IMG/VR virus record: IMGVR_UViG_3300030095_000993
Span: 1 to 43,278 of that record
Length of the DNA stretch: 43,278 bases
Source: a virus
Lineage: Duplodnaviria > Caudoviricetes
Reading direction: 5' to 3' (one strand)
A program made the translations under genes and the position numbers. This document shows positions 1 through 42,852 of this stretch, piece after piece. Positions within the stretch are counted from its first letter, which is position 1. The number at the start of each line of letters is the position of its first letter. The notes under the pieces are model-generated. The model was not told where the DNA came from. It was given only the letters and a program-made list of their open reading frames with translations, and did no database searches.

Positions 1-25
1 CTCGATAGTTGAGAGTCACTTCCAT
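1..25 (-). CDS. 5' part of the 20-aa YRG (DUF4278-like) peptide, cut by the window edge
   Basis: GGAGG-N7-ATG at 25 reads MEVTLNYR. The full copy is at 41994-42056. Confidence 0.7.
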
Positions 26-45
26 TGTAATACCTCCAATGTTAG

Positions 46-95
46 TGCGTTCCTTCGTACACTATGTACTACTTCCGAGCCTATGCTTGAACGAT
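46..95 (-). ncRNA. Glutamine riboswitch (glnA motif, class I), copy 1
   Basis: Minus strand reads AU-CGUUC-A-AGC(AUAG)GCU-CGGAAGUA-GUACA(UAG)UGUAC-GAAG-GAACG. This gives P1, P2 and P3 plus the GGAAGUA/GAA E-loop of the glnA consensus, directly upstream of a YRG peptide. Confidence 0.85.
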
Positions 96-104
96 CTTAA
101 TACC

Positions 105-132
105 AATATATAAATATTAATTTCATTGTCAA
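105..132 (-). promoter_or_regulatory. Sigma70-type promoter for the riboswitch/peptide
   Basis: TTGACA-N16-TATATT. The predicted start falls at the 5' end of the riboswitch, and both boxes are conserved in the second copy. Confidence 0.7.
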
Positions 133-293
133 GAACTTAAAGGAGTTATTCTAAACTGACCGATCATTAACTTTATGTTCGAATTTCCGTACAATTTCTG
201 ACACGCTAACTCTAATACTTTCCCTCGATGATACTCACTTACTTCAACTACCGCTTCATTCCCCTGCGTGTCAACAACTTTGTACATAGACAT
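129..293 (-). CDS. Small hypothetical protein, 54 aa (not in ORF track)
   Basis: GGAGG RBS; MSMYKVVDTQGNEAVVEVSEYHRGKVLELACQKLYGNSNIKLMIGQFRITPLSS. It is 40/54 identical to 42160-42324 with the frame preserved. Confidence 0.8.
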   Translation of the reverse strand: MSMYKVVDTQGNEAVVEVSEYHRGKVLELACQKLYGNSNIKLMIGQFRITPLSS

Positions 294-364
294 ACGTCCT
301 CCGTTAATGGTTAATAATAAAAATCACATTTGAAGGTAAAATTTAATACCTTCGCTTGTTTGAA

Positions 365-1917: not shown

Positions 1918-4014
1918 TTATAATTGTGTTTGTCCGTAAACGGCTTCTGCTGATGATCCAAAATTACTACCAGATTGATCGGATAATATAACGCCACCTT
2001 CAGGAATAATTAAACCACCAGACGAGGTTGCTAAATCTTTAAGCGACCCATCAATTTTTGTTCCACTCAAACCAATTTTTGAACCCTTTTGAGCTGTCTG
2101 TCCGTTTAATACTGCGTTTCCGTAGTCATTGTTAGCCGCAGCATATACATTTGAAGCCTCATCAGCAATAATACCTGTATAAAGGTCAGAGAAATAAGAG
2201 TTAGTAACGATACCAAACCCTCTTGAGAAACGAACACCCATTGGATTTGCATTAGTAGTTGCCGTTTCGTTTCCTTTAAATTGACAGTTATCTACATAAG
2301 TAGTTGAGTTTTTCGACACAATAATCTCCGAGTTATTATTAGTGCCTGTTATTTCAAACGCTAGGTCATTAACAAAGAAATCTGCAGAGTTATTAAAGGC
2401 TTGAATTAATCCTTGATACCCACCTGTTGAACCTGTAAGTTTAGTTCTAAAAGTTCCAGAACCAGTACCAGATTCATTTACGTTTGCACCTGCTGTAAAG
2501 TCATACGCTTGAAATACAATTTTACCACCAGTAAAAGCATTGATAGCAGTAGTAGCACTACCAAGATCGTATGTGTTTTGACTACCTGCCGCAGCTGCTG
2601 CAAATCTAAATGTAATTGCGTGTCCATTTAAATTTTTAGGTTGGTCTGCAATTAATGCTCTAATTTCAGCACCACTTGAACCCGCAGCAATTGTAACATT
2701 TTTGTTATATCTTAATATAGTCTCTTCAAGGATAAGACCATTTTTGTTAGTAATTAAACCACCTTGAGAAACTGAATAATCGGCACTAGAGCCTTCAATA
2801 ATACTAGTAGAATTTAATATACCAATGCCTACCTGTACCTGCATTCCAGTAACAGGTTGTGTTCCTGTCCAGGCAGCATCAAGTTGAGCCGCTGTAGCCA
2901 TATTACCTACAACAATACCTACACTTACATTGTTTACCCAAGAGTAACGAAACCAACTTGTTGCTCCTCTTTGTGACAACAAACCACGCATTGCTTGTTG
3001 ATGAGTAGAATAATTGCCTGTTAGTACAGAGTAATTAATGTCAACCCAAGCCGAACTTGCAACAACAACATATCCTTCGCCAGTTCCAGTAGTTTGTCTT
3101 AACTCTAAACCTTGAACATGAACCTCTGAGCATCTTCCAATTTCAAATATACGAGTAATACTTGTCCCTGAACTTTGAATTTTGTTTACTTTTGTATAAC
3201 TATTGTTATTTCTGTCGGTACCAAGTGCAGACGTAATTAAAAAGGTACCACCAGTAAAGTCCCCTATTTGAATATCGTCACTAATTGTTATGGTCTGTCC
3301 AGATTCGGTACCAAATACAAGGTTAATATCGTAACCATTTATATTTTTAGGTAGTGAATTAATAGCGGCTTGTATTGTATCTTGAGCATCATTGCTGTAG
3401 TCACTTGCATTAAACGTAGCACTTGTGTGACCAGTAACAACACATTGTGTAGTAGACTCTCCACCACTCTGAGTAATTGTAACTGTTGTGTTTGCTTGCA
3501 GTAAGTCAGCATTAATCTTGGTTAGGTTAGATGCAATGTTGGTTACATTGGTTGCAATATCTGTATCGTTAGATGCGATGTTAGTTGCATTGGTAGCAAT
3601 GTTGGTTACGTTAGTAGCAATGTCTGTATCGTTAGATGCGATGTTAGTTGCATTGGTAGCAATGTTGGTTACGTTAGTAGCAATGTCTGTATCATTAGAT
3701 GCGATGTTAGTTGCATTGGTAGCAATGTTGGTTACGTTAGTAGCAATGTCTGTATCATTAGATGCGATGTTAGTTGCGTTAGTAGCAATGTTAGTTACAT
3801 TTGTTGCGATATCTGTATCGTTAGATGCAATGTTAGTTGCATTGGTTGCAATGTTGGTTACATTGGTAGCAATGTCTGTATCATTAGATGCTATGTTAGT
3901 TGCATTAGAAGCAATAGCAGTTGTGTTGGTATTGATTTGATCAATCCCGGCATCTACTCTTGTTCTCCAGGTTAAGTTAGTTTGGCCATTGCTGTTAATT
4001 TTACTCAGAGTCAT
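1918..4014 (-). CDS. Tail fibre/spike: coiled-coil stalk plus two beta-helix-like domains
   Basis: N-terminal heptad repeats, then two related blocks (IQAAINSLPKNINGYDINLVF and IRALIADQPKNLNGHAITFRF) followed by G/S/N/T-rich beta sequence. Confidence 0.75.
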   Translation of the reverse strand: MTLSKINSNGQTNLTWRTRVDAGIDQINTNTTAIASNATNIASNDTDIATNVTNIATNATNIASNDTDIATNVTNIATNATNIASNDTDIATNVTNIATNATNIASNDTDIATNVTNIATNATNIASNDTDIATNVTNIATNATNIASNDTDIATNVTNIASNLTKINADLLQANTTVTITQSGGESTTQCVVTGHTSATFNASDYSNDAQDTIQAAINSLPKNINGYDINLVFGTESGQTITISDDIQIGDFTGGTFLITSALGTDRNNNSYTKVNKIQSSGTSITRIFEIGRCSEVHVQGLELRQTTGTGEGYVVVASSAWVDINYSVLTGNYSTHQQAMRGLLSQRGATSWFRYSWVNNVSVGIVVGNMATAAQLDAAWTGTQPVTGMQVQVGIGILNSTSIIEGSSADYSVSQGGLITNKNGLILEETILRYNKNVTIAAGSSGAEIRALIADQPKNLNGHAITFRFAAAAAGSQNTYDLGSATTAINAFTGGKIVFQAYDFTAGANVNESGTGSGTFRTKLTGSTGGYQGLIQAFNNSADFFVNDLAFEITGTNNNSEIIVSKNSTTYVDNCQFKGNETATTNANPMGVRFSRGFGIVTNSYFSDLYTGIIADEASNVYAAANNDYGNAVLNGQTAQKGSKIGLSGTKIDGSLKDLATSSGGLIIPEGGVILSDQSGSNFGSSAEAVYGQTQL
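3520..3897 (-). repeat. Six tandem 63-bp coding repeats (NIASNDTDIATNVTNIATNAT)
   Basis: A tctgtatc core recurs every 63 bp. Units 1-5 are identical in protein and differ only at synonymous positions. Confidence 0.95.
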
Positions 4015-7643: not shown

Positions 7644-10600
7644 TTAATAAGTGACTCTTTTTCTGTTTTTACTCTTTTTCTTCTTTTTAGGCTTTCTAGT
7701 TTGCACTCCTAACCCAACAAACTCGCCTGAAAACTCAGTAGCAATCTCTTGGAATGAATGCTCTTCTTGTATTCCTTGATATAAATTAACCAATGATATT
7801 GGAAATGCTTTTTCTACTATGGTTGTTAGAGGTAATACATCTTGCCTGGTTACATATCGCTTACCAGTAAACAACTCAATAGTAGTCCCTATCCATGGTG
7901 ATGCTTTGTATTTAAAGAATGTGTTAAGAACTTGAGTAGATAAATCAACTTTTACTTCCTCGCCAGATATTCTTTTAATTGCAGAATCACCAAACTTAGA
8001 TAGTAAACGCATCATAGGCCCCATACCTGCAAAAAAGTCTAATCTTGTTCTGCCCATTTTAATTAATCCAAAGTCAGATTCTTCTGGGTCATCTCCGATC
8101 TCTGCACCTGCTAACACCGCAAGAGTCCCTACAATAGCCCATGTCGTTAATGCTGCTCCCCATTGTCTAGCAATTTCTTCTGCAACTATACGTTCTTCAC
8201 CTTTTAAAAATCCTTTACTTAGTTTAGCCCCACCCTCTAAGCCAACCATAAGTCGTGACATTGCAAATCGAGGCGAGAAGAAAAACGCTGATAGTGCTGT
8301 AGACGCTCCCTCTAATGCATATAAATCACCACGACCAGACGCTGTGTTAATGTAGTGAGCCATAGACTTTAACTCTAACTCAGTAGCATTAGGGTTAGCT
8401 TCTACAAATGCATCGAATGATGCGGCTCTCATAACGTTAAGCATTATAACCATGTGACGCTCTGATGCGCCCATTACAGCAGAAATAGGTCTACCAACAC
8501 CAGGTATTTTGTACACCTGTTCTAGTGCCGCAGAACTAAATGCTTCTTCTGAAGTTAACAACCCTGTATCAAGAGAAGAGAAAAATAGCCCTGCTCCTTG
8601 TCGTATAAGACTCATTTCATCATTATCAAGAATAGTCATTACTTGCGATGCAAACTGAGGGTCAAACATAGCTTTTGCAGACGTTCTAACAGCTTTAGCA
8701 AATTTTACAGGATGACGAACGCCTAATAAGAAAGCCTGTCTAAATACAGCAGACATATCAGCAGTAGCCATAAATGCACGAGGTAATGATATATAATCAG
8801 CAACACGCTCTAACGTAGTCTTAGGCTTTAAGTCGTTGATAGCTCTACGAATCAATCGTTCATTTTCTCTTTGTACAATAAGTAAATCTTTTAACTCTGG
8901 ATCAAGTATCTCTTTCTTTTCTTTAGGCGTTAAATATGTCGCAAAGTCTTTTTCTCGCACGATACGCTCTTGCTCTTCAATCTTAGCCAACACATTTGCT
9001 TTACGCTTCTCTTCAAATTTAATCTGTTGCATTTGCTGATACCACTCTTGCTGACGTATCTGCTCTTGTAACTCATTAATTGTTTCAGTGTATTCAGTTT
9101 CTGTTTTTATTTGAGGAGCATCTCTTTCAGGTAACCGGCCGGTTTCAAGTATCTCAGTCAGCTCTGCGATACGGTCTTGCTGTTTAAGAAGTCTTTGTTT
9201 TTCCTTAATACTAACCTGTACATCATTAAGTTTAGCTTGCTGTTTAGGCGCTACATTAGCTCGATACCAACCTGCAACCTGGCTAGTTAACTCATCTAGT
9301 CTAGCTTTCTGTTCTGCTTCTAGTCTTGCCTTACGAGCTTCGTCAGCCTTAATGCGTCTGGTTTCTTTTATTTGACCTTCAAGTAATGCTATCTCTGCAC
9401 GATACTGTTCTAGTCTTTGTGACTGAGGGTTACGTTTTGTTCTAGCAAACTTAGGTGGCTCACCATAATCAATAATAGTGCGAAGCAAAATCAACTTGTC
9501 TTGCGCCCGGAGTTCAGCACGTTTGGTAAACAGACGGTCTGCCATATCACTTATGCGCTCTGATTGTTTCTTACTAGGTTTTCTAACTGGTCGGTACAAA
9601 CCTTCTATCATCAACTCAATGTTGTTAATCTCTGCCAACATACGAGCAGCGGCAGCATCCTCTCTTGCGCTTTCTCTTGATGCTTTCTTTAGCTCTTCTA
9701 GTTTAGCTCTTAACGCTTGCACCTCAACAGACTTAGGGGCTTGCACACGATCTGGGTCAAACAAGTTATCCATTGCGTTGTTGATTTGTACAATAAGATC
9801 AGACTGTAAAGTTAAAGCCTTGAGTATTTTGCGAGCTTCAGTTTCTGTTTTAGGGATACGCTGTACTCGGCCCGATATAGCACCATATATGTCGTACTCT
9901 AACGTATCAGGTAACACGCCTTTGATTTCATTTACAACAGAATCAAGATCATTGTAACCTTCGTATACTAGAACTTTAGCCATTTCACGGATGTCAATTG
10001 CTAGAGATGGTGATATATTAAACAACTGGGTTTTACCAAATCCTTCAATATTGTAACCTTTATTTTTAAGACGCTTTATTAGCTTATCTTTTTGGTTTAA
10101 TGATTTTTTAGCAGCCTTAGTCCCTCGATCTGATTGGGCTTTTTTAATAAACAAGTTACCTGCTTTTATATCTGTGTCACGAACAGTTGTGTATTGCTTG
10201 TTTTGATAATCAATAATCTTAGATTGAGTTTTTTCCCACTTAGCTTGTGCGTCCGCTATGTTTTTTTGTTCTTCTGGAGTTAAGTCTCCTGAGTTACCTA
10301 AACGACTCTTAGCAGCAGAAGCTCGTCTTATACAGCTTGCTAGTGAGTAATCGTTGTTAAGTGCAATCCGTCTAGCATTTAAAGCACGGCCTGTAGCAGA
10401 ACCAGACTTAGCATCAGCTTTTACTAACAAACTCATTTCAGCTAACTTGTCCTCATACTTGCGAGATAGGTCAACCGATGTGTTTCCATATTGTGCGTTT
10501 TCCATTGCGTCACGAAGCTCTTCAATCTCATTACGCAACTGTGTAACACGATAAACAAACATTGCGTGTTGTTGGTCGCTTAGTATTAAATCTTCTTCAA

Positions 10601-13600
10601 GTGCCTGTAGAGCTAAGTTTTTAACATCGATAGGGTTGCAGTTCTTAGCGGCATTGGCTATTAATGTGGCAAACCGCTTGCCTCTAGGGCTAGATAAAAC
10701 TTCACCCATATTCATTAATAATATTTTTATTTCTTTCTTAGTTAACTTAGTAGCACCTTCAATCGTTTCATCAGGGAACAATTGATCTTCATCAACGAAC
10801 TCATCATAAAATTCATCTGGGTCATCTAAATCAACATCAACCTCATCATCAAAATCTTCTGGCTCTTCTGCTGCCTCACGCTCTCGTTCAAGTTGTTGAC
10901 GTTCAGCTGCTTCTCTTTCCTGTCTAGCAATCTCTATTTGACGCTCTAAGAAGTCATCTGGTAACTGTGCTTTACCAATCATAGGAGCAATAAATTCTCT
11001 AGTAATAACGCCTTGTATTCCGTTGCCAAGCATTGCTCGATTAAGTTGTACGTTATCAGACATAGTAGCGTCTGTAGGTAAATTCATATATGCTAAGTAC
11101 ATTTCGGTAGTACCACGCTTAACAAGAAACCCTATATTATCATACGCATCTTTTACTTGCTTAACAGTAGCTCCGTAGTATTTAGCGGTATACTTTAGTC
11201 CTTTTTCTTGTACCATTTTACGAACAGGAAGTGCAATACGCATAACCGCAGATGAGCCATACAAAGAGCCATCTTCTAACTTTTTCTTTTCTTTTATTCC
11301 GGCTTTTCGTTTCTTTTCATCATAAACAAAGTTAGCTGTTAACGCATGACCTGCTCCCCCCTGCGGCTTAAAGAAACCATCACCACCCGGTGCAATGTAT
11401 GCTACGTTAGGGTTAAAGTTGTGATCGTATATTCTTCCTAGAAGGTCTTGTACAATCTTCATATTTTTACCGCTTCTACCTTCAAACTGTATTGCTTCAT
11501 CTACAGGTGCTTCAGGTATAAACTTAGCTATAGCGGGATACCAGTCGCCATCTCTATGTTCTTTAGGCATATCTGGCAATGGTGTTTTAGATGCTCTAAC
11601 GATTAAACGTGTACGCATTGAGTTACCACCATAGTTCTGTGCGTCTGGTGTTGATTCTTCAACGTAGTAACCCGCTTTGCCTAGAGCTTTGCGAATAACG
11701 GCATACTGCGCTGAGTCTTGATATGCAGGTGCATTCTCAATAGTTATGTTATCTGGTTGTACCTCTGTAATAATCTTAGCTAGTTTACGAGCAATCTTCA
11801 TTTCTAGCTTAAAATCTTCTTCAGTTACTTTGCCTTTTTCTCTAGCAGCACTAAAAGCCTGGCAAGGCGGTGACATATGTATAAACTGCACACCTTTATC
11901 AATTAGCTCTTGGACTTTTAGTTTTAAAACATCTGTAGGTATTTCAGCAGTGCCATGAGTAAGGTTGTATGTATCAATAAGGCTTTGTTCAATTTCAGCA
12001 GTAGATACAACTTCAAATCCCATTGCATCTAGAAGGGCTAACTCTACTGTACCCAACCCAGAGAAGAATGTAGCAATCTTAATCTTTTTCTTAGGAGTGT
12101 CTTCTTCTGCTAACTGAAACTTGCCATCATCTCGCAAAATTCCTAATGCTTCTTTCTGTGCTTTTTTCTGTAAACGAAACTTAGGATGATCTAGCGTTAC
12201 TATTTCTGGGTTCTTAGCAAATACTAAACCACCAATCTGTACAACCTCTTCCGCACTAAGCACAGGCATGCCAACCTTATCGCCCTCTCTAACGTAGAAA
12301 AACGAACGTCTAAAGGGGTTAAATCCGACCTGAGTCCAGTCAGGATCATTCATTAATTGTTGACCTAACTCATAGTTTTCTTGATCTGTAGAGTCTACAT
12401 ACTCACCTCGAATCGTGGAAACAGGCCCCTTTTTATCTAAACCTACAGCAATTTTAGCTCCTCTTAATGTTGGGGCTAGCATTTCTACATTTTTGGCTCT
12501 AGCTGTTGCTTGGTATGAAATAACATCAGTACCTTTACCTTCATGAATTGTTACTACATATTTACCTACACGATTGCCTTGCTTGTCTTGTTTCATGTAA
12601 GCAGGAATATCTAACCGTAACTTTACTATATCACCTTCTTTTGGTCTTTTATTTACCTTAGGTGCTTGGTCTTTCTTTAAAACATCTTTCATCTGCTTGA
12701 TGGTTGGTAGTTCTGGCAGTATATCAAATCTACGAATGGGATCAAACTTCTGCTGTATCTCTACAAACTGCTCGTATGTAATCTCACCCGCAAAGTAACG
12801 CTTAATAGCTTGTACCACCTGAGGTATGCGATCAAAGTTAAGCATATAATCTGACGACAACTGAGCCTTGCCTTGAGTATGTACAGTAAACGGTTTAGAT
12901 ACTCCAGAAGAAGGTGGAAACAATTTCCCCTTGGCTTTTCCTGTAATTTGTTTCCCAGTATTAGGGTTAATAACTGCTGTATCCCACATATAACGATCTT
13001 TTAACATGTGTATAACAGGTTTGTCGCCATCTACAGACGCAACCGCAAACGGATAAGATGGGTGTGAGTCAGTTTTAATTAATTTAAGAGGGCCTTTTAT
13101 TTCTAAAACAGCATATAATTGACCTCCCTTTTGTCTATCGATAGCTAACTCGCTTTCAATAGCATTTTTAAGAACTGGTTCAGCAAGCATTTCTGACAAG
13201 TGACGAATACCTACTCTTCCGTAACCACCAGGTTTTTGAACAAGTTTAGCGGCAGATGCTTCTTTTCTAATTTCTGTGTTATATATTTTTATACTGCTGT
13301 AATATTTTAAAAGTTGTTTTGCGAATCTAGGTTTTTTTTCTGCTAACAATCCAACTTCATTAATTAAATCGTTAACAAACGCAGTTCTGGCTTTAAATGA
13401 AGATTCAGTAGCCCCTAATGCTTGTTGAATATAAAACATAGACAACTCTTGAGAAAAACCTTTAGGGGCAGTTTCTTTAATTTTAAGGGGCTTGGCTGCA
13501 CGTTTAACTATTGTTTCAAATTCTGACTGAGTAAATGAAAAATCTGGGTCGTTTGCCATATCAGAAAAAACATCTAATATTGCGTTTGATCCTACACTTG

Positions 13601-16600
13601 AGCCTAACACTTTAGTTCTTGGAGCAGATGTTAAACCCATAAGAATAATGCCACCATTTGCTCTTGCTACTTCGTTAAGATTAGTAACAAGCGATACAGC
13701 TCCTGATTGTGTGCTTGCCCAAAAATACCCTTGCTCATTAAATTTAAGAGGATAAAACACACCCCCTTTTCCTTTAACTAAAACTCTACCATTACGTTCG
13801 ATGCTACCAGAAAAAGCGGAGTCTGGCTGATGCAACATAATAGTCATGCCATTAAAGTTTCTAATGCTTCTGTCTCTTGTAATAAATCCTTTTGCCTCAA
13901 GCTCATCCCACTGTTGGCTATCCATATCGTAGTAGTAAGATAGGTTGCTATCTTCATCGTAGTAGCTTAATTGAAACTTATCTGCTCTAAAGCTAGTCTC
14001 GCCTTGAGATTCGTAGCCTTCTGGCATTTCGGCTGCCATTTCGTCTAATAGGGCTAAATCGTCCTCTAGGATGCGTTCTCCTGCAGTTGTCTTATAAGCT
14101 AATACTCGGAGCATCTCAATGGCTCTTCCTTCATCAGAGAAGGATACAATGCCTTTAAAGATAGTCGCTAGGAAGTCTTGTATCTGTGAACGCAAAGTAG
14201 GCTTTAATGCATCGTAGTTATTAAGAAGTATACTAGCAAGTTGAGCTATACCTTCTTCGTCTAATTCTTTAAGAACTCGCTCTGATGATGCAGCATCTCC
14301 TTCTTCAAGCAATCTAGCTGATAAATCAATGTACATTTGCTGAAACGCTTTAATCTCTGATTTTGTTTTTTCACTTAAAGAATGTTTGAGCATTTGATTT
14401 AAAATTCGATCTGCCGCAACTCTTATATTTTCAGTGTTCTTAAATTTTTGATGAAATACAGCGTGTACAACTTCGTGTGCTACAGTACCTTGTGTTGCAG
14501 AGTCACCATTAAGAAAAATAGTATTCTTCATATCATAGTAACCATTGCCAAATGCACCAGTGCGTTTTATAAAGTCATCGTTGTTATCTATTAAAACTAC
14601 TTCTACACCAGGGGCGACTACACCCAACGCTCGTTCTGTTCGCTCGACCATCTTTTTGCGTTCTTTTGCAAGCCTACGCTTTTTGTTTTTATTAACCTTA
14701 GGTTTACGTTCTTCAGTCTCTGCTGTTTGGTCTACATCATCTGTAGCTTCATTTACTTTTTGCTCTATAGGTGTTCCGTATTGTTCTATAGTTTGTTTAA
14801 CAGCAGCTTTACGAGCTTCTTCAATAGTTTGTCCTTCTGCAACCTCAAGAGAACCATCAAATTCACCATTTATAATATTATTAATAACAGTTTCTGTGTC
14901 TGCATTAATATCGTACTCTTGGTCAAGCTCTACACCCGCTACTGTAAAAGGTTTACGATCTACTTGCTCATCAGGCTCTTCTTCGTCAGGAAATTCTGTT
15001 TCTAGTGCTTCATCAACAACATCAAGTATCAGCTTGTTATAGTCACGCCTGGCTTCTGTGTTACCATATACAGCTTCAACAAAAAGGTCTTTTTCTGTTG
15101 CGTTGCGAATTAAATCACGAAGTTCTTGTTCGTTGTATATAGTAGCCATTTGGTCAAAGTCTGCATCTGTTAGAATTTCACCTCCCATTGTTATACGACC
15201 AGTTTCGTCATATATCTGCGCAGCTTTCTTTTCTTCTATCTTAGCTTTACTGGCTATATCTATAGTTTCATAAACACCATTAATTTCTTCAGTTATAGCT
15301 CTAAACTGTTCTGGGTCACCCGCGGCATCAGCCATTTTACGAGCGTACTCTCTTGCCATAGCCTTACTAAACCCGGAATCTATTAAACCTTGTTCTGTTT
15401 GTCTAACATAATTCCTAGCTTGTACTCCACGAATTGATACGCCTACAGGTGCTAAAATAGCAGATATACGAGCCGAACCCAATGCTGAATCATACAAGCC
15501 ATCGTTCCATGCTACCTTTTCTTTCTCTATACCAAAGTCTTTTGCTTTTTTAATAGCCGCATTAAATACTTGGTTGTATACAAGCTGTTGGCTTAACTCT
15601 TCACCAACATTAAATGCTGCCTCAGGAAAAACTTTTTTTATCTGACTTAACATTGTTCGGGTGTATTCACGCTGAATACTTTGCCCTTTTAGACCTGCTA
15701 ACTTTTTAAAACTTTTAGTCTGAAAGTATTCAATACCACCTGACACAGCGGCATATAAACTTGCGTATGTTTGGGCTAAGTCATATCGAGTAAGCAACTC
15801 GTTATACTCTTCATCGTTCCCGCTAAATTCTTTTCTTTTAGGTAACATTCTAGGAACATCAAAAATATCTTCAAATGCTTCTAGAGAATGTTTCTTTTCC
15901 TGTGCATACATAAAAGACATGCCTGCCCAAGCGGGCATAAATCCTCCCGCAAAGTTAGGAGCATTAGTTAAAAATGCCGCAAACATTGCTGATACTGATA
16001 AAGCGTCAGAGTCTCCTGCTCTCGCCCTAAGTTCTTCAATATCGCCTCTCATTTCTTCTGGCACAAGATTAATAAATTCATCTATCTTAGATCGTCTAAC
16101 TGAGTATTCTTCTTTAATTTCTTTTGCATACTCAGGCATAAGTGCGGTTTCAAGTCCTTCTTGTAAAAGACTAAACCCTCTTAAAAATTCTTCAGTAACC
16201 CCTTCTCCCGCTTCTAAAATAACACCTAATGTACCATTCAACCATTCTTTAGCTTCTAGGTTTTCGTAATCACCTGTGTAAAACTGTAACTCTTTTTCCT
16301 GTTTTTGCTTGATAGCGGTATAGTCAATATCTTCTGAATCAATCCCATAGGTTCTCCGTATTGCTCCATCAACTTCGCCATCGTTCATATCACGACCATA
16401 TTGCGCTCTAAAGCCATTACCATAACGCAATCGATAAAAGTCTCTAACTGCAACACGATCAGCCATAGCCATACCCATGTCACTGCTATATAGCTCTATA
16501 TCAGACCTGTCAGTTACTTGTCTAATAGGGTTAAAGCCTAAAGCCTTAAATGAGTCCGTATGAATAGTATCAGCAATACGAGGCTCAGTTCTTTTATTTT

Positions 16601-16607
16601 CAATCAT
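7644..16607 (-). CDS. Giant internal virion (gp16-position) polyvalent protein with zincin metallopeptidase and C5 cytosine DNA methyltransferase domains
   Basis: Third gene after tail tubular B. HEVVH at aa 711-715. MTase motifs FFSGLG, PPCQAFS, TIENAP, RxRLIV and LGNGI in aa ~1500-1877. Helical C-terminal third. Confidence 0.85.
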   Translation of the reverse strand: MIENKRTEPRIADTIHTDSFKALGFNPIRQVTDRSDIELYSSDMGMAMADRVAVRDFYRLRYGNGFRAQYGRDMNDGEVDGAIRRTYGIDSEDIDYTAIKQKQEKELQFYTGDYENLEAKEWLNGTLGVILEAGEGVTEEFLRGFSLLQEGLETALMPEYAKEIKEEYSVRRSKIDEFINLVPEEMRGDIEELRARAGDSDALSVSAMFAAFLTNAPNFAGGFMPAWAGMSFMYAQEKKHSLEAFEDIFDVPRMLPKRKEFSGNDEEYNELLTRYDLAQTYASLYAAVSGGIEYFQTKSFKKLAGLKGQSIQREYTRTMLSQIKKVFPEAAFNVGEELSQQLVYNQVFNAAIKKAKDFGIEKEKVAWNDGLYDSALGSARISAILAPVGVSIRGVQARNYVRQTEQGLIDSGFSKAMAREYARKMADAAGDPEQFRAITEEINGVYETIDIASKAKIEEKKAAQIYDETGRITMGGEILTDADFDQMATIYNEQELRDLIRNATEKDLFVEAVYGNTEARRDYNKLILDVVDEALETEFPDEEEPDEQVDRKPFTVAGVELDQEYDINADTETVINNIINGEFDGSLEVAEGQTIEEARKAAVKQTIEQYGTPIEQKVNEATDDVDQTAETEERKPKVNKNKKRRLAKERKKMVERTERALGVVAPGVEVVLIDNNDDFIKRTGAFGNGYYDMKNTIFLNGDSATQGTVAHEVVHAVFHQKFKNTENIRVAADRILNQMLKHSLSEKTKSEIKAFQQMYIDLSARLLEEGDAASSERVLKELDEEGIAQLASILLNNYDALKPTLRSQIQDFLATIFKGIVSFSDEGRAIEMLRVLAYKTTAGERILEDDLALLDEMAAEMPEGYESQGETSFRADKFQLSYYDEDSNLSYYYDMDSQQWDELEAKGFITRDRSIRNFNGMTIMLHQPDSAFSGSIERNGRVLVKGKGGVFYPLKFNEQGYFWASTQSGAVSLVTNLNEVARANGGIILMGLTSAPRTKVLGSSVGSNAILDVFSDMANDPDFSFTQSEFETIVKRAAKPLKIKETAPKGFSQELSMFYIQQALGATESSFKARTAFVNDLINEVGLLAEKKPRFAKQLLKYYSSIKIYNTEIRKEASAAKLVQKPGGYGRVGIRHLSEMLAEPVLKNAIESELAIDRQKGGQLYAVLEIKGPLKLIKTDSHPSYPFAVASVDGDKPVIHMLKDRYMWDTAVINPNTGKQITGKAKGKLFPPSSGVSKPFTVHTQGKAQLSSDYMLNFDRIPQVVQAIKRYFAGEITYEQFVEIQQKFDPIRRFDILPELPTIKQMKDVLKKDQAPKVNKRPKEGDIVKLRLDIPAYMKQDKQGNRVGKYVVTIHEGKGTDVISYQATARAKNVEMLAPTLRGAKIAVGLDKKGPVSTIRGEYVDSTDQENYELGQQLMNDPDWTQVGFNPFRRSFFYVREGDKVGMPVLSAEEVVQIGGLVFAKNPEIVTLDHPKFRLQKKAQKEALGILRDDGKFQLAEEDTPKKKIKIATFFSGLGTVELALLDAMGFEVVSTAEIEQSLIDTYNLTHGTAEIPTDVLKLKVQELIDKGVQFIHMSPPCQAFSAAREKGKVTEEDFKLEMKIARKLAKIITEVQPDNITIENAPAYQDSAQYAVIRKALGKAGYYVEESTPDAQNYGGNSMRTRLIVRASKTPLPDMPKEHRDGDWYPAIAKFIPEAPVDEAIQFEGRSGKNMKIVQDLLGRIYDHNFNPNVAYIAPGGDGFFKPQGGAGHALTANFVYDEKKRKAGIKEKKKLEDGSLYGSSAVMRIALPVRKMVQEKGLKYTAKYYGATVKQVKDAYDNIGFLVKRGTTEMYLAYMNLPTDATMSDNVQLNRAMLGNGIQGVITREFIAPMIGKAQLPDDFLERQIEIARQEREAAERQQLEREREAAEEPEDFDDEVDVDLDDPDEFYDEFVDEDQLFPDETIEGATKLTKKEIKILLMNMGEVLSSPRGKRFATLIANAAKNCNPIDVKNLALQALEEDLILSDQQHAMFVYRVTQLRNEIEELRDAMENAQYGNTSVDLSRKYEDKLAEMSLLVKADAKSGSATGRALNARRIALNNDYSLASCIRRASAAKSRLGNSGDLTPEEQKNIADAQAKWEKTQSKIIDYQNKQYTTVRDTDIKAGNLFIKKAQSDRGTKAAKKSLNQKDKLIKRLKNKGYNIEGFGKTQLFNISPSLAIDIREMAKVLVYEGYNDLDSVVNEIKGVLPDTLEYDIYGAISGRVQRIPKTETEARKILKALTLQSDLIVQINNAMDNLFDPDRVQAPKSVEVQALRAKLEELKKASRESAREDAAAARMLAEINNIELMIEGLYRPVRKPSKKQSERISDMADRLFTKRAELRAQDKLILLRTIIDYGEPPKFARTKRNPQSQRLEQYRAEIALLEGQIKETRRIKADEARKARLEAEQKARLDELTSQVAGWYRANVAPKQQAKLNDVQVSIKEKQRLLKQQDRIAELTEILETGRLPERDAPQIKTETEYTETINELQEQIRQQEWYQQMQQIKFEEKRKANVLAKIEEQERIVREKDFATYLTPKEKKEILDPELKDLLIVQRENERLIRRAINDLKPKTTLERVADYISLPRAFMATADMSAVFRQAFLLGVRHPVKFAKAVRTSAKAMFDPQFASQVMTILDNDEMSLIRQGAGLFFSSLDTGLLTSEEAFSSAALEQVYKIPGVGRPISAVMGASERHMVIMLNVMRAASFDAFVEANPNATELELKSMAHYINTASGRGDLYALEGASTALSAFFFSPRFAMSRLMVGLEGGAKLSKGFLKGEERIVAEEIARQWGAALTTWAIVGTLAVLAGAEIGDDPEESDFGLIKMGRTRLDFFAGMGPMMRLLSKFGDSAIKRISGEEVKVDLSTQVLNTFFKYKASPWIGTTIELFTGKRYVTRQDVLPLTTIVEKAFPISLVNLYQGIQEEHSFQEIATEFSGEFVGLGVQTRKPKKKKKSKNRKRVTY

Positions 16608-26725: not shown

Positions 26726-27013
26726 CTAACATCTCCATCTTCGCCTTGCGGCTTTACCTCTTTTGCCAGTCCAACTTTTAGACCTAGCGCAAAATGATTT
26801 ACGTCTTTTAGCTGCTTTGCTACCAGGCTTTACTTTACCAGTAACAGCAGTTTTAAGTTTACTGCCTGGGTTAGCTCTACGATGAGCTGCAACCCCCTTA
26901 GCTGTCATACCCGCACCTTCTTTAGTAGACCGATAGTTACGGCCCTTACCTTTAGTTGTTTTAGGTATGGCTTTTTCTTTTTTTCTAGAAAGTAAAGTTC
27001 GCCTCTGGCTCAT
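26726..27013 (-). CDS. Highly basic protein (DUF6321-like)
   Basis: K/R-rich, with GMTAKG..NPGSKLK..RRKSFCARS..RRRWRC. Confidence 0.75.
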   Translation of the reverse strand: MSQRRTLLSRKKEKAIPKTTKGKGRNYRSTKEGAGMTAKGVAAHRRANPGSKLKTAVTGKVKPGSKAAKRRKSFCARSKSWTGKRGKAARRRWRC

Positions 27014-27575
27014 CTATACCTCCATATTCTTGCTGATAACTTACTTCTTCTAAATCCCACTCATCATTATCATTCATTAAACGCTCGTAATTATCTTCTG
27101 CTCGATAGCCTACTTGCCCAAAATACTTACTTTCGGTGAAGTCAGACTTTTCAGCATTTACAAACTTTAACTCACCTGCCGCTTTACGCATATAAATTTT
27201 CTTTAAAACAGGGTTTGTTTGCTCAGACGCTTTCTTTATATTTTTAATTAGGTTGGGAAACTTTGCAGTCCAGTTAACTCCCATATTAAATGTTAAATCA
27301 ATTAAGGCCGCTCTTTGTTGGGCTGTTAACGTATCAAACCCTTTAATTTCTTTAGCCCTTGCGTAATGTAATTTGAAATCTTTTTCAAAAAGTCCTTCAA
27401 GGTAGCTTTCATTTACACGATCTCCTTCTTTATATTTAGTTTTTTCTTGATCAGTTAGCCTGTGACCAGTACCCATGGTTAGGTATCCACGGCTATCTTT
27501 ATAAACATAGTTCCGATAACCTTCATGTTTCCGAACCATTGCTTTTACTTTTCTTATAAACTGTTCTTCATTCAT
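26985..27575 (-). CDS. Phage lysozyme (GH24, T4-type)
   Basis: HEGYRNYVYKDSRGYLTMGTGH matches the E-x8-D-x5-T triad; ALIDLTFNMG. Likely start MNEEQ at 27575. Confidence 0.85.
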   Translation of the reverse strand: MNEEQFIRKVKAMVRKHEGYRNYVYKDSRGYLTMGTGHRLTDQEKTKYKEGDRVNESYLEGLFEKDFKLHYARAKEIKGFDTLTAQQRAALIDLTFNMGVNWTAKFPNLIKNIKKASEQTNPVLKKIYMRKAAGELKFVNAEKSDFTESKYFGQVGYRAEDNYERLMNDNDEWDLEEVSYQQEYGGIDEPEANFTF

Positions 27576-27774
27576 CGTCTGATATAATCGCCTCGACATA
27601 TCTATACAAGTCTTGCATTCCGTTACGATAGGCGCAGTCAGCATGAGTAAGATCAGACCCCGCTTGAGCATCGATGTTGCAAAAATCTCTAAGATCATCT
27701 AATACCTCAGAACCTTCTGGCGTTTTAAACACACGTTTGTATGCTGATATTAAGTTAGATAGTTCGTGTGACAT
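27568..27774 (-). CDS. Portal-adjacent protein (Bbp19-like)
   Basis: YKRVFKTPEGSEVLDDL..AYRNG pattern, immediately after the portal. Confidence 0.75.
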   Translation of the reverse strand: MSHELSNLISAYKRVFKTPEGSEVLDDLRDFCNIDAQAGSDLTHADCAYRNGMQDLYRYVEAIISDDE

Positions 27775-36770: not shown

Positions 36771-38035
36771 AAACTTTACCTGTGTCAGACGAGTCAGAGA
36801 AGGGAGTGTTGGGTTCATGTTTATTAGACCCAAGTATTATAGGTAGAATTGATCTGCACGAGGAAGACTTCTATGATCCTCGTAATCAGAAGCTATGGGT
36901 ATCGCTGAAGGAACAGTATGCTCAAGGTAAAGCTATGGATGCTATTACGATTGGTGCATGGCTAAACGAGCATAACGAGCTAGAAGGTGTAGGTGGTTAT
37001 GACAGACTCATTGACCTTCAGGATGAAGCAGTCGTTTCTGCTCATTCTGAGCATTATACAGAGGGCGTGTTAAAAGCCTCTAGATTGCGTCAGGAGATCA
37101 AGGCATTACAAGATGGACTGGGTGTCGCCTATGATGGAGAAAGTGCCTCAGAGAGCGTTATAAGCGCCTTAATAAGGGCAAATGTCAGCGTTGAGAAAGG
37201 CCTCACCATAGAAGAGCATGGAGAGAAGTTTATTCAGGACTGTATCGATGCACAATGTGGTCACTTTGGATGGTGGTGTTCAGAGTGGACAGAGAAGCTA
37301 GGTAGACAGAAGAGTGAGTTGGTTTTATTACATGCTCCTCGATCAACTGGTAAGACTGCGATGATGCTACAATGGCAGATAGCCGCACATATGCGTGGAG
37401 ACAGAACCCCGCTTGCATCTATTGAAATGCTGAAGGGTGAGTTGCTACCTAGATACCTGGCTCATGTTGGGCAGATGGATACCTATCGCATGAAGGTAAG
37501 GCCAGTTGGTGCTACAGAAGATGAGGCAGATCGGGCAAGAAAGGCTTTGAAGACTGTAGCCTCGCTTGATCTATGCGTTCGTGATAAAGGTATGACCATT
37601 GAAGATATTCGTGGCTGGGCTGTGGCTGAATGGCGTAAAGGCGCACAGGCTATATTCATTGATAACTTGTTAAGCATATCTGATGGAGGAAAGAACTATG
37701 ATAGTAAGACTATTATGTATGATGATTTCATTCGTAAGTTCAGAGACTTGCGTGATGATTTACAGATACCTATTATTATCTTAGCACATCCGAATGCTAA
37801 TATGCAGATAGCATGGTCTAAGGATGTAGAGAACTTTGCTGATCAAATTATACTGTTAGCTAATGTTCCGTCTGAAGGTATAGATGTTAACGGAGAAACT
37901 GTTTACCAATTACCCTTGAGTGGCACACATGTTATTGCTAAGTTTCAAAAGAATAGACAAGGACTAAGCCCGGTGGCGAGCCTTGAGTTTGACGGAGTTA
38001 CACAAACATTTAAACACATACAATGGGAGACATAA
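36767..38035 (+). CDS. dnaB: Replicative DnaB-like helicase
   Basis: N-domain SEKGVLGSCLLD..EDFYDPRNQ, Walker A APRSTGKT, SIEM, Walker B IFIDNL, and KNRQG arginine finger. Confidence 0.88.
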   Translation: MKTLPVSDESEKGVLGSCLLDPSIIGRIDLHEEDFYDPRNQKLWVSLKEQYAQGKAMDAITIGAWLNEHNELEGVGGYDRLIDLQDEAVVSAHSEHYTEGVLKASRLRQEIKALQDGLGVAYDGESASESVISALIRANVSVEKGLTIEEHGEKFIQDCIDAQCGHFGWWCSEWTEKLGRQKSELVLLHAPRSTGKTAMMLQWQIAAHMRGDRTPLASIEMLKGELLPRYLAHVGQMDTYRMKVRPVGATEDEADRARKALKTVASLDLCVRDKGMTIEDIRGWAVAEWRKGAQAIFIDNLLSISDGGKNYDSKTIMYDDFIRKFRDLRDDLQIPIIILAHPNANMQIAWSKDVENFADQIILLANVPSEGIDVNGETVYQLPLSGTHVIAKFQKNRQGLSPVASLEFDGVTQTFKHIQWET

Positions 38036-39348
38036 TGTGGATATTACCAAAACAATTACACACCTTAGCCTCTGTTCTGGATACGGAGGAATCGGAGAAG
38101 GACTTAAATCAATTCTGCCAAGAGTGCGAGACATCGCTCATGTGGAGATCGAAGCCTTCGCTGTTGCGAACCTGGTTGCGAAGATGGAAAACGAATTACT
38201 GGATGAAGCTCCTATCTATACGGATGTTAAGACCTTCCCATACCAAGTATTTTGTGGATGCGTGGACATCCTTAGTGGTGGATTCCCATGCCAACCGTTT
38301 AGCTCCGCAGGAAATAGACAAGGTGTTGAAGACCCTCGTCACCTCTACCCCTACATCAGCAGAGGAATCAGTAAATGCAAACCTAGAATTGTTTTCCTCG
38401 AAAATGTTGAAGGAATCATCTCAAGCAAAACAGCAGACGGAGAATCAGTTCTCAAGTATGTCCTCAGCGACTTGGAAGAAATGGGTTACCGAGCAACGGC
38501 AGGAATATTCTCAGCGTCTGAAGTTGGCGCACCTCACCAGAGAAAACGAGTCTTCATCATGGGGTACTCCGAACACGAGGGACTACAAGGACACAATGAA
38601 CACAGTTCCTCCGAGTATAGGGAAAACGAGGGGTCTATCGTTGGGGCAGGGAGTGGCTGCGGAACTCCAGAAGAACTGGGCAACTCCGAGAGCGAGTGCA
38701 ACGGACTCAACGAGACCGAATGGGAAGGGGGGGATACCACTAGCACAACAAGCGAAGAACTGGAGGACACCAAGCGTTGCGGAAACGAAAAATCAATGCA
38801 ATTCTCAGCAGATTTATCTTCAAAATCAGGTGGGTGTAACGGAAAAGAAGGGCAAAAATTGGGCAACTCCCAACACAATGGACACGCTACCAGCACGGAG
38901 TCCAGAGAAGTTAGCGGAAGCCAAGAAGAAGGGTGGCTGCAAGAATCTACGGGAGGAAGTGATGAACTACCCGACACCCAGAACATCGGATGCGGAGGGC
39001 GGCCGGATAGAGACCTTCGTGGAGGACGGTTCGTTCAAGAGCAAGAGACACAAGAGCAATCAGACGTTCGGTGCGAAGCTGAGGGATGCGGTGGAGACTT
39101 TTCCAACACCAACAGCCAGGGATTGGAAGGGGTGCGGGAATGCAACACCTCGGAAAGATGGCAAACACCGAATGGACAACTTAGAAGCTATTGTGAAGCA
39201 TGGCCCGCAAGACCCAACGAACCACAGTACGAATGGGAAGAACCACGCACTAAACCCAAATTGGGTCGAGCAGCTAATGGGACTTCCAGTAGGGTGGACA
39301 GACTTAGGCTCTTGGGGAACGGAGTCGTGCCAGACACAGCAGCAGTAG
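38035..39348 (+). CDS. Overlapping-frame second polypeptide of the C5 MTase (motif IX plus repeated W-x-T-P modules)
   Basis: 437-codon frame nested on the MTase gene; TAATG coupling to dnaB; ends LNPNWVEQLMGLPVGWTD. Confidence 0.75.
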   Translation: MWILPKQLHTLASVLDTEESEKDLNQFCQECETSLMWRSKPSLLRTWLRRWKTNYWMKLLSIRMLRPSHTKYFVDAWTSLVVDSHANRLAPQEIDKVLKTLVTSTPTSAEESVNANLELFSSKMLKESSQAKQQTENQFSSMSSATWKKWVTEQRQEYSQRLKLAHLTRENESSSWGTPNTRDYKDTMNTVPPSIGKTRGLSLGQGVAAELQKNWATPRASATDSTRPNGKGGIPLAQQAKNWRTPSVAETKNQCNSQQIYLQNQVGVTEKKGKNWATPNTMDTLPARSPEKLAEAKKKGGCKNLREEVMNYPTPRTSDAEGGRIETFVEDGSFKSKRHKSNQTFGAKLRDAVETFPTPTARDWKGCGNATPRKDGKHRMDNLEAIVKHGPQDPTNHSTNGKNHALNPNWVEQLMGLPVGWTDLGSWGTESCQTQQQ

Positions 39349-39383
39349 CTTTCAAAACTCTTATAGGCAGACTTCTTGATTAG
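38037..39383 (+). CDS. DNA cytosine-5 methyltransferase, catalytic polypeptide
   Basis: Motifs I (LSLCSGYGG), IV (GFPCQPFS), VI (LENVEG), VIII (HQRKRVF) and X (LRLLGNGVVP). Probable GTG start after GGAGA. Confidence 0.9.
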   Translation: MDITKTITHLSLCSGYGGIGEGLKSILPRVRDIAHVEIEAFAVANLVAKMENELLDEAPIYTDVKTFPYQVFCGCVDILSGGFPCQPFSSAGNRQGVEDPRHLYPYISRGISKCKPRIVFLENVEGIISSKTADGESVLKYVLSDLEEMGYRATAGIFSASEVGAPHQRKRVFIMGYSEHEGLQGHNEHSSSEYRENEGSIVGAGSGCGTPEELGNSESECNGLNETEWEGGDTTSTTSEELEDTKRCGNEKSMQFSADLSSKSGGCNGKEGQKLGNSQHNGHATSTESREVSGSQEEGWLQESTGGSDELPDTQNIGCGGRPDRDLRGGRFVQEQETQEQSDVRCEAEGCGGDFSNTNSQGLEGVRECNTSERWQTPNGQLRSYCEAWPARPNEPQYEWEEPRTKPKLGRAANGTSSRVDRLRLLGNGVVPDTAAVAFKTLIGRLLD

Positions 39384-41996: not shown

Positions 41997-42056
41997 TTTG
42001 TCTAGCTTGATTACTTTAACGTAAGTCGAGCCTCGATAGTTGAGAGTCACTTCCAT
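41994..42056 (-). CDS. 20-aa YRG peptide (DUF4278-like)
   Basis: GGAGG RBS; MEVTLNYRGSTYVKVIKLDK with the LxYRGxxY motif; under the glutamine riboswitch. Confidence 0.8.
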   Translation of the reverse strand: MEVTLNYRGSTYVKVIKLDK

Positions 42057-42076
42057 TGTAATACCTCCAATGTTAG

Positions 42077-42126
42077 TGCGTTCCTTCGTACACTATGTAC
42101 TACTTCCGAGCCAAAGCTTGAACGAT
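42077..42126 (-). ncRNA. Glutamine riboswitch (glnA motif), copy 2
   Basis: Same as copy 1 except that the P2 loop is UUUG instead of AUAG. Confidence 0.85.
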
Positions 42127-42135
42127 CTTAATACC

Positions 42136-42163
42136 AATATATAAATACTAAACTCATTGTCAA
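42136..42163 (-). promoter_or_regulatory. Sigma70-type promoter, copy 2
   Basis: TTGACA-N16-TATATT; substitutions fall only in the spacer. Confidence 0.7.
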
Positions 42164-42324
42164 GAACTTAAAGGAGTTATTCTAAAATGCCCGATCATTT
42201 GCTCTATAGTTGATCTCCCATACATCTTCTGACAAGCTAATTCTAGAATCCTTCCTCGATGATACTGCTCTACTGTGACGATTGCTTCATTACCTTTGGG
42301 GTCAACAACTTTATACATAGACAT
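42160..42324 (-). CDS. Small hypothetical protein, 54 aa, homolog of 129-293
   Basis: MSMYKVVDPKGNEAIVTVEQYHRGRILELACQKMYGRSTIEQMIGHFRITPLSS. Confidence 0.8.
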   Translation of the reverse strand: MSMYKVVDPKGNEAIVTVEQYHRGRILELACQKMYGRSTIEQMIGHFRITPLSS

Positions 42325-42423
42325 ACGTCCTCCGTTAAGATTAAAAATAAAAGGGGGACATTTAGTAGTTTTAACGATGAGTCCCAGTCACCGCAACAAA
42401 GGGCAAGTATTACCCTAGGATTA

Positions 42424-42852
42424 CTACTTAACCTGTGACGACCCGAAGTAAAATCCGACAAGTGCTAGCATCGTCTGTCGAACTTCGGGTAATAAAACAT
42501 ATCCTTGCAACTCAATCCATCCGTTTCCATTATCGAACAACTGGCTTATACCCAGGAAACCTAACAAGCCTCCCTTTGAACCTGCCTCAATAGTAACTGG
42601 TTCGTTAAAGAACGCAAGAACAAATGGTGCAAATATTACTGCAAACAAAGTACACAACGCAATAGTTCTACGCACGACAGCACCTGCCACACCATCACGT
42701 TTAGCGGCTCGATCAGCAGACTCATCAGCGAGTTGCTGTTTCTTAATCATAGACTCTACCATATTGGTTTGAGCCTGTGCTTGTGCGGCTATCAGTTTCA
42801 TCACGAAACCAGACAAGCTGCCACCTAACATTGCTAGCAGTTCAACACTCAT
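42424..42852 (-). CDS. Membrane protein, possible holin; homolog of 365-790
   Basis: Near-identical protein with many synonymous changes. Confidence 0.65.
   Translation of the reverse strand: MSVELLAMLGGSLSGFVMKLIAAQAQAQTNMVESMIKKQQLADESADRAAKRDGVAGAVVRRTIALCTLFAVIFAPFVLAFFNEPVTIEAGSKGGLLGFLGISQLFDNGNGWIELQGYVLLPEVRQTMLALVGFYFGSSQVK

What the first reader, a model, noticed from the sequence alone, without database searches (positions are those of the whole stretch)
10023..14477. Candidate self-processing injected polyprotein: (G)K[F/A/T]QL linkers bracket each cargo domain downstream of an HExxH protease
Seen: in the 2987-aa protein, HEVVH (14463-14477, aa 711) is followed by five related motifs. 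They are DKFQL (KFQL at 13968-13979, aa 877), GKAQL (12858-12872, aa 1246), GKFQL (12111-12125, aa 1495), GKAQL (10962-10976, aa 1878) and GKTQL (10023-10037, aa 2191). The third and fourth flank the methyltransferase almost exactly, and their codons differ, so conservation is at the protein level. Established: phage and conjugative polyvalent proteins carry zincin MPTase domains proposed to release effectors, and gp16-position proteins are ejected into the cell. Inference: the motif is the cleavage site, making a plug-in cassette system that delivers several anti-host enzymes at DNA entry. This is my best candidate for an undescribed system here.
Basis: partly seen in the sequence, partly recalled or inferred. 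Interest (0 to 1): 0.88.

Follow-up and report, generated by a model that had tools for sequence, protein, structure and literature searches.

The report
Linker code in phage ejection polyprotein
A marine phage's giant 2,987-residue protein carries a zinc-protease-like domain followed by swappable modules, each opened by the same short Lys/Arg-x-Gln tag, which likely marks where the protein cuts itself into separate pieces when it is delivered into the host; no cut has been shown.

Summary
Observation confirmed: all five motifs and HEVVH lie where stated. Within this one protein the repeat is only borderline after correcting for motif picking (21 of 300 shuffles). Homologues make it strong. 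[KR]xQ is kept at 40 of 46 equivalent joints in 10 relatives. In 148 held-out giant proteins with the same HExxH domain, R-x-Q follows the protease (64 of 137 vs 15 expected) and marks BLAST-defined module swaps (65 of 149 vs 12-18). A natural in-frame allele lacks exactly module 2 plus one motif. The two modelled modules fold as single domains that fill the intervals between motifs. Relatives without HExxH lack the tag at joint 5 (0 of 5 vs 6 of 6). Corrections: the family code is [RK]-x-Q, not KxQL; only one cargo is a recognisable enzyme (a C5 DNA methyltransferase, probably protective, not anti-host); segment 4 is conserved core; six joints are degenerate. Cleavage, packaging and injection are untested, and N4 vRNAP carries a similar domain uncut. 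Self-processing polyvalent proteins were proposed in 2017; I found no cut-site code in print. This scan noted similar zincin-plus-junction motifs on other DNA. Cultured Elemo phages make the test feasible.

The parts
7644..16607 (-). Giant 2987-aa protein in the gp16 (last ejection-protein) position; polyvalent-type protein
   Evidence: follows portal, scaffold-like gene, capsid, two tail genes, an internal virion protein (phrog_418, E 1e-14) and a 566-aa unknown
14688..16607 (-). N-terminal region aa 1-640, unknown function; holds no K-x-Q-L
   Evidence: no Pfam hit below E 0.16 and no PHROG hit
14043..14645 (-). Zincin-like MPTase domain aa ~655-855
   Evidence: HExxH in 148 of 148 new homologues; H711, E712, H715, E784 and E785 invariant; weak Pfam Astacin E 8.5e-4 and SprT 8.9e-3, phrog_87 metallo-protease 1.9e-3
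14463..14477 (-). HEVVH zinc-binding motif, aa 711-715
14253..14258 (-). E784-E785, likely third zinc ligand
   Evidence: 100% conserved in 149 aligned domains; role inferred from the MPTase description in PMC5512222
13968..13982 (-). Motif 1 DKFQL (protease | module 1)
12873..13967 (-). Module 1 (365 aa): single confident domain, a common first cargo in the family; weak YTH/EVE (PUA-like) resemblance; hypervariable middle
   Evidence: AF2 pLDDT 88, pTM 0.87; VIA Z 6.5, rmsd 3.7, 138 aligned to YTHDF1, below the reliable range; 60 of 152 proteins carry it
12858..12872 (-). Motif 2 GKAQL
12126..12857 (-). Module 2 (244 aa): mobile phage domain without a match among solved structures; lost in a natural allele, replaced in a relative
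   Evidence: AF2 pTM 0.85; no PDB match; viral multidomain matches, TM up to 0.8
12111..12125 (-). Motif 3 GKFQL
10977..12110 (-). Module 3: C5 cytosine DNA methyltransferase with motif I (FxGxG), IV (PCQ), VI (ENA), VIII and X (GN) lookalikes
   Evidence: PF00145 E 9.8e-22; positions; motif numbering from my own knowledge
10962..10976 (-). Motif 4 GKAQL
10038..10961 (-). Segment 4: acidic linker plus a region co-inherited with the C-terminal core; not swappable cargo
   Evidence: present with the C-terminal region in all close relatives and in HExxH-less P0195-P0198
10023..10037 (-). Motif 5 GKTQL
   Evidence: present in 6 of 6 HExxH-bearing and 0 of 5 HExxH-less aligned proteins
7647..10022 (-). 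Conserved C-terminal core (charged stretch, then a domain shared with other giant phage proteins)
   Evidence: 40 homologues; no Pfam or PHROG hit
12105..12849 (-). Stretch missing in a natural in-frame allele (745 nt replaced by 10; net 245 aa)
   Evidence: joint 12104-12850 in contigs of runs X11 and X6, two studies, 2 of 4 runs laid; protein P0002

Best explanation
This is a giant phage protein in the ejection-protein position, likely packaged and injected, in which a short [RK]-x-Q tag opens each swappable module behind a conserved HExxH domain, and that domain likely cuts at the tags to release the modules. Shown: the tags, their position at folded-domain borders, their conservation, cargo gain, loss and exchange at them, and their link to the HExxH domain. 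Inferred: packaging and ejection (gene position; depositors' 'structural protein' label in the Elemo relative); that the zincin is active; that the tag is its substrate. Timing is the weakest step. Most likely the protein leaves the capsid as one string and is cut after refolding in the cell, freeing a C5 methyltransferase (likely protecting incoming DNA from restriction) and two modules of unknown function. New cargo would only need a tag at its border to join the system.
For: Close clade: [KR]xQ at 40 of 46 equivalent joints in 10 relatives; P0006 (37% identical in the protease region) reads KFQL at all five. Held-out family: R.Q in the 45-aa linker after the protease in 64 of 137 vs 14.7 shuffled, max 22; 16 of 44 vs 4.0 after thinning to under 50% identity. 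After module 1: 22 of 36 vs 3.2, with many different next modules. At swap junctions defined by BLAST without using the motif: 65 of 149 vs 17.5 shuffled and 12.1 at random places; control patterns not enriched. Five of five ART-PolyVal cargo units are flanked by R-x-Q on both sides. No enrichment upstream of the protease (169 vs 186) against 522 vs 343 downstream; in 79 viral loci 208 vs 117 in the cargo region and 125 vs 128 in the N-terminal part. Each protein tends to reuse its own tripeptide: 60 vs 30.5 permuted, 0 of 2000. Natural in-frame loss of module 2 plus motif 3; replacement by an unrelated 163-aa module between GKAQL and GKQQL in P0194. Modules 1 and 2 fold as single domains spanning residues 2-362 of 365 and 12-237 of 244. 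The linker follows the carrier, not the cargo: module 2 is followed by [RKQ][FLY][SA] in 6 of 6 other HExxH carriers and by an aromatic-x-x-GG motif in 22 of 27 HExxH-less carriers, 11 of which are near-copies (patterns chosen after looking). Joint 5: tag in 6 of 6 HExxH-bearing, 0 of 5 HExxH-less proteins. The scaffold-like gene has no [RK]xQ and the capsid none near its N-terminus; five other Elemo proteins have no R.Q.
Against: No cleavage data exist for any member. N4 vRNAP carries an HExxH domain yet is packaged unprocessed, and ArdC and TraC1 are transferred full length (PMC5512222 section 8; PMC13434306 section 7). Six of 46 close-clade joints lack the Gln (GKFRT, GKKKK, GKFSL, GKFRR, GRTPT, GKARI), and about half of the family's junctions lack R.Q. 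A looser boundary test was weak (25 of 222 vs 12-13). The motif is only two fixed residues, low specificity for a protease. The HExxH-less comparison may be only one or two independent events, and those proteins keep their own conserved residues at joint 5. K versus R tags are clustered on a quick protease tree (8 changes vs 12.4 shuffled), but no protease residue tracked them. Other + strand ORFs of the 79 loci show a slight R.Q excess (291 vs 266).
Confidence: 0.58

Rival explanations
1. The tags are docking or handling signals, not cut sites: the HExxH domain or another virion protein binds them to pack, unfold or thread the beads-on-a-string protein, which stays whole.
For: N4 vRNAP's HExxH domain packs against the polymerase in an uncut protein and its region is needed for encapsidation. 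Degenerate joints are tolerated. All co-occurrence data fit this equally well.
Against: The catalytic Glu and all zinc ligands are invariant across 149 domains at about 30% identity, more than binding alone needs.
Confidence: 0.17
2. The tags are cut, but by another protease (a host enzyme or a phage head protease), and the zincin has a different target such as a host protein.
For: A fixed P3 and P1 (as in A-x-E) is the style of head-maturation proteases (recalled; PMC10052503 seen only as a listing and abstract start). The gene at 25721-26560 hits phrog_458, labelled 'protease' (E 3e-11). PMC5512222 allows that MPTases act as effectors.
Against: That gene is acidic, lies between portal and capsid like a scaffold, and its best hit is an unknown family; it and the capsid N-terminus lack the tag. 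The tag occurs only downstream of the zincin and is absent at joint 5 in zincin-less relatives.
Confidence: 0.14
3. The tag is an evolutionary scar: modules are shuffled by recombination at short shared DNA, or descend with a common N-terminal cap, and the peptide has no function of its own.
For: Motif codons share 8-12 of 15 nt; swaps fall at the motif; RFQ/KFQ tends to precede module 1; related proteins inflate the self-recurrence count.
Against: Synonymous codons differ while K and Q stay fixed. The observed deletion breaks 8 nt after motif 2 and just after motif 3, not within the shared DNA. The tag precedes unrelated folds and changes with the carrier protein.
Confidence: 0.09
4. Chance repeat in a Lys/Gln-rich protein.
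For: Look-elsewhere result 21 of 300 in the single protein.
Against: Held-out enrichment at three independent kinds of position.
Confidence: 0.02

Closest known systems
Phage-type polyvalent proteins with a zincin-like MPTase hub (Iyer et al. 2017, PMC5512222)
   Same: Giant multidomain phage protein with an HExxH...E MPTase; relatives carry ART-PolyVal, LPD23 and LPD38; self-processing before packaging or after injection was proposed there.
   Different: In what I saw of the paper (abstract, outline, section 8, 12 passages; 'linker' 0 occurrences; its supplements not seen) no cleavage motif is named. Here the joints carry a defined [RK]-x-Q tag, with natural gain, loss and swap at it. The methylase here is C5, while the paper says those of polyvalent proteins are mostly adenine methylases.
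Coliphage N4 virion RNA polymerase gp50 (PMC13434306)
   Same: Giant ejected beads-on-a-string protein with an HExxH domain.
   Different: Packaged unprocessed; single fixed cargo (RNAP) upstream of the HExxH domain; no repeated tag mentioned in the passages and section 7 that I read.
T7 gp16-position ejection proteins (own knowledge)
   Same: Last and largest gene after tail genes and an internal virion protein in a podovirus-type head-tail block.
   Different: No sequence match to gp16 families and no transglycosylase domain found; about twice as long, modular.
crAss-like cargo block with zincin gp65 (bioRxiv 10.1101/2020.03.07.982082, two passages read)
   Same: Virion cargo polyprotein with a zincin proposed to cleave or activate it.
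   Different: RNAP-centred; cleavage left undetermined; no sites given in those passages.
Flavobacterium phage Elemo gp18 (YP_010109083.1, 3694 aa)
   Same: Cultured member of this family: same protease and module 1; RFQ 1683, RQQ 2079, RAQ 2223, RMQ 2302.
   Different: Annotated only as 'structural protein'; different later cargo; uses R rather than K.

Membership tests
Phage polyvalent proteins (Iyer 2017) | Several domains of disparate activity in one large polypeptide | tested here: met
   MPTase-like domain + C5 methyltransferase + two independently folding mobile modules; relatives with ART-PolyVal, LPD23, LPD38, DUF7178
Phage polyvalent proteins (Iyer 2017) | Encoded by a phage, in the virion gene block | tested here: met
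   80 viral loci
Phage polyvalent proteins (Iyer 2017) | Packaged and injected with the DNA | not testable with these tools
   position and the depositors' 'structural protein' label for Elemo gp18 only; the basis of that label was not seen
Zincin-like MPTase | HExxH helix plus a downstream conserved Glu | tested here: met
   invariant H711, E712, H715, E784, E785
Zincin-like MPTase | Three-stranded sheet plus helices fold | not tested
   both fold jobs went to the cargo modules; a PDB sequence search gave only M3 peptidases at E 0.2-1.7
Zincin-like MPTase | Zinc-dependent proteolysis | not testable with these tools
   needs an assay
Self-processing polyprotein | Recurring site at domain borders, outside folded cores | tested here: met
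   motifs themselves were not in the models; motif 5 was not modelled
Self-processing polyprotein | Cleavage at the site by the encoded protease | not testable with these tools
   no data
C5 cytosine DNA methyltransferase (module 3) | Motifs I, IV (catalytic PC), VI, VIII, X in order | tested here: met
   PF00145 E 9.8e-22; aa 1514, 1579, 1623, 1663, 1860
YTH/EVE (PUA-like) reader (module 1) | Structural match | tested here: inconclusive
   Z 6.5, 6.1 and 5.6 with rmsd 3.6-4.0 over 130-138 residues; no Foldseek hit at E <= 0.001
T7 gp16 family | Sequence homology or N-terminal lytic transglycosylase | tested here: inconclusive
   no Pfam or PHROG hit; the N-terminal region was not folded

The most novel reading that the evidence does not exclude
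A widespread family of phages uses a programmable, self-cutting delivery polyprotein: one ejected chain whose own zincin reads a two-residue [RK]-x-Q code and frees any domain inserted behind a tag, so that cargo (methylases, ADP-ribosyltransferases, modified-base readers, new folds) is gained and lost as cassettes even within one population, while protease and tag drift together between lineages.
Probability: 0.45. Interest if true: 0.8.

Novelty: new variant of a known kind. Interest (0 to 1): 0.63.

Why it matters
The function of the MPTase, the commonest domain of polyvalent proteins, was left open in the 2017 paper because no substrate was known, and I found no later answer in my searches. 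This family gives exact candidate sites, a catalytic residue to mutate, natural cassette variants and a cultured phage-host pair (Elemo phages on Flavobacterium sp. BAL314), so the question becomes directly testable. The tags also cut roughly 150 unannotated giant proteins into candidate effector domains, including one (module 2) with no match among solved structures.

Tried and rejected
Literal K.QL, KFQ and RFS as a family-wide motif: not enriched in 148 homologues. Generic HSP-start boundary test: weak, R.Q 25 of 222; [RK].Q 47 vs 35.6 shuffled, within range. Pfam, PHROG and ESM Atlas could not name modules 1, 2, 4, the N-terminal or the C-terminal region; Foldseek against PDB found nothing for modules 1 and 2, VIA nothing at Z >= 2 for module 2, which does not prove a new fold. 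PDB sequence search of the protease: nothing significant. No protease residue co-varying with K versus R tags among 7 hand-picked K proteins; the careful tree did not finish and only a quick tree was read. Single-protein search of viral contigs gave one locus. Nine literature searches showed no paper describing this tag; the library lacks most subscription journals, and supplements of PMC5512222 were not seen. The paper on the Elemo isolates was not held. Terminal repeats as proof of a complete genome: rejected, the ends share only an 87% 320-nt duplicate. Rows dropped before counts: 11 of 148 (7 without a recognised end box, 4 too short); 25 of 61 module-1 hits (21 incomplete or too near the end, 4 not held out); junction windows over 70 aa.
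Full report
Observation. The minus-strand ORF 7644-16607 encodes 2987 aa. HEVVH and the five motifs are at the stated coordinates. All five K-x-Q-L of the protein lie downstream of HExxH, and only one more occurs in the other frames of the window. With a fixed pattern the repeat is unlikely (K.QL 20 of 5000 shuffles, GK.QL 0 of 5000). Allowing for the pattern having been picked from the data, 21 of 300 global and 13 of 300 local shuffles give an equally good pattern. The single protein therefore does not settle the matter.

Context. The gene closes a podovirus-type block: terminase-like gene, portal (PF12236), scaffold-like gene, capsid (PF19821), two tail genes, an internal virion protein (phrog_418) and a 566-aa unknown. 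That this is the gp16 position rests on my knowledge of T7-like gene order; no homology to gp16 was found. The stretch is held by marine and aquatic viral metagenome runs: 20 of 24 listed rows, 9 studies, one of which includes possible source runs.

Close relatives. Ten relatives share protease, module 1, methyltransferase and C-terminal core. [KR]xQ is present at 40 of their 46 equivalent joints (positions set by hand). P0006, 37% identical in the protease region, reads KFQL at all five. The six misses keep G-[KR] but lose the Gln: one joint each in P0043, P0191 and P0194, three in P0193. P0002 lacks exactly 245 aa, namely module 2 from its fourth residue plus motif 3. The same joint is seen in contigs of two of four laid runs from two studies (12104 to 12850, 745 nt replaced by 10), and those runs also hold pieces of the long form. 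The break does not lie inside the motif DNA. P0194 has an unrelated 163-aa module between GKAQL and GKQQL in place of module 2; P0043, P0191 and P0193 have no module 2.

Wider family, held out. The protease domain found 220 representatives; the best 150 were returned, 148 of them new and mostly giant proteins. All 148 have HExxH, and E784-E785 are invariant. K.QL is not enriched among them (52 vs 61), but R-x-Q is. It lies in the 45-aa linker after the protease in 64 of 137 usable proteins (14.7 expected, max 22), and in 16 of 44 after thinning to under 50% identity (4.0 expected). After module 1 it occurs in 22 of 36 (3.2 expected), and what follows differs widely. At junctions where BLAST homology between two proteins ends and another module begins, defined without the motif, it occurs in 65 of 149 windows (17.5 shuffled, 12.1 at random places), while reversed or shifted patterns do not exceed their shuffles. 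A cruder test on all alignment starts was weak (25 of 222). There is no excess upstream of the protease. Each protein tends to reuse its own tripeptide (60 vs 30.5, 0 of 2000 permutations; kinship not removed). Of 33 giants scanned with Pfam, five carry ART-PolyVal, each unit flanked by R-x-Q on both sides; LPD23, LPD38 and DUF7178 also occur.

Domain borders. AlphaFold2 models of modules 1 and 2, cut at the motifs, are single confident domains (pTM 0.87 and 0.85) that fill the intervals; the motifs themselves were not in the models. Module 1 has a weak, repeated likeness to YTH/EVE readers of modified bases (best Z 6.5, rmsd 3.7, 138 residues), a lead only. Module 2 has no match in solved structures but recurs in other phage multidomain proteins. 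Module 3 is a C5 methyltransferase running from just after motif 3 to just before motif 4. Segment 4 travels with the C-terminal core and is not exchangeable cargo.

Link to the protease. At joint 5, 6 of 6 HExxH-bearing proteins have G-[KR]-x-Q and 0 of 5 HExxH-less relatives do; this may be one or two independent events. The same module 2 is followed by KFQ here, by [RKQ][FLY][SA] in 6 of 6 other HExxH carriers and by aromatic-x-x-GG in 22 of 27 HExxH-less carriers (loose patterns chosen after looking, 11 near-copies, proteins of 428-2000 aa only). The scaffold-like gene carries a PHROG label 'protease', but neither it nor the capsid N-terminus has the tag, which argues against a general head-maturation code without excluding it.

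Mechanism. Most likely the protein is packaged, threads out as a string of domains, and its zincin cuts at the tags, releasing the methyltransferase (likely protecting the entering DNA) and modules 1 and 2. Tags, borders, swaps and co-occurrence are shown; packaging, activity, the scissile bond and timing are inferred. The main evidence against is that N4 vRNAP, ArdC and TraC1 carry MPTases and stay whole, and that degenerate joints are tolerated. Rivals: non-cleaving docking signal (0.17), another protease (0.14), recombination scar (0.09), chance (0.02).

What is known. PMC5512222 (abstract, outline, section 8 and 12 passages read) defines polyvalent proteins and proposes autoproteolysis without naming a site in what I saw. 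PMC13434306 (passages and section 7) shows the N4 HExxH domain inside an uncut polymerase assembly. The phi14:2 preprint (two passages) leaves zincin cleavage open. Nine searches showed no paper on this tag. The only cultured relatives found are 68 records of Flavobacterium Elemo phages, whose 3694-aa protein has R-x-Q at its joints. Earlier notes of this scan describe the same theme, a zincin plus a junction motif of other spelling, on at least five other genomes, with no look-alike of this sequence; I did not check them and do not count them as support.

Verdict. A real, well-supported linker code in a known class of protein, with cleavage unproven: new variant of a known kind, interest 0.63.

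Noticed in passing
window ~13160-13610 (aa ~1001-1150, middle of module 1): Hypervariable: 34-56% identity per 50 aa to relatives that are 92-100% identical on both sides, which suggests allele exchange or diversifying selection on a host-facing surface. Module 2 aa 1351-1400 is similarly variable (54-58%).
   Followed up: no
P0011-P0026, P0031, P0033-P0034, P0036, P0039-P0042: HExxH-less phage multidomain proteins carrying module 2 repeat an aromatic-x-x-GG motif (1-10 copies) at module borders, a possible second linker code with an unknown protease.
   Followed up: partly
P0027-P0030, P0035, P0038: Other MPTase carriers use [RKQ]-[FLY]-[SA] at the borders of module 2.
   Followed up: partly
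P0193 joints: Three of four joints replace Gln (twice by Arg) while keeping G-[KR], a possible coordinated change of specificity.
   Followed up: no
P0195, P0196, P0198, P0203 joint 5: HExxH-less relatives keep a conserved R-[VL]-N-D-[IV]-T at the position of motif 5, not clearly repeated elsewhere in those proteins.
   Followed up: partly
window 1-322 and 42032-42352; ORFs 365-790 and 42424-42852: 87% identical 320-nt duplicate near both ends, each beside a phrog_38283 gene: a diverged duplication, not an exact terminal repeat.
   Followed up: no
window 37983-39383: Two long overlapping + strand frames (466 and 441 aa); the 441-aa one hits a DNA methyltransferase PHROG only in its C-terminal, TP-repeat part.
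   Followed up: no
window 3533-3915: 63-nt tandem repeats (21-aa units) in the 698-aa gene 1918-4014.
   Followed up: no
window 26985-27698: Phage lysozyme gene between portal and scaffold-like gene (PF00959).
   Followed up: no
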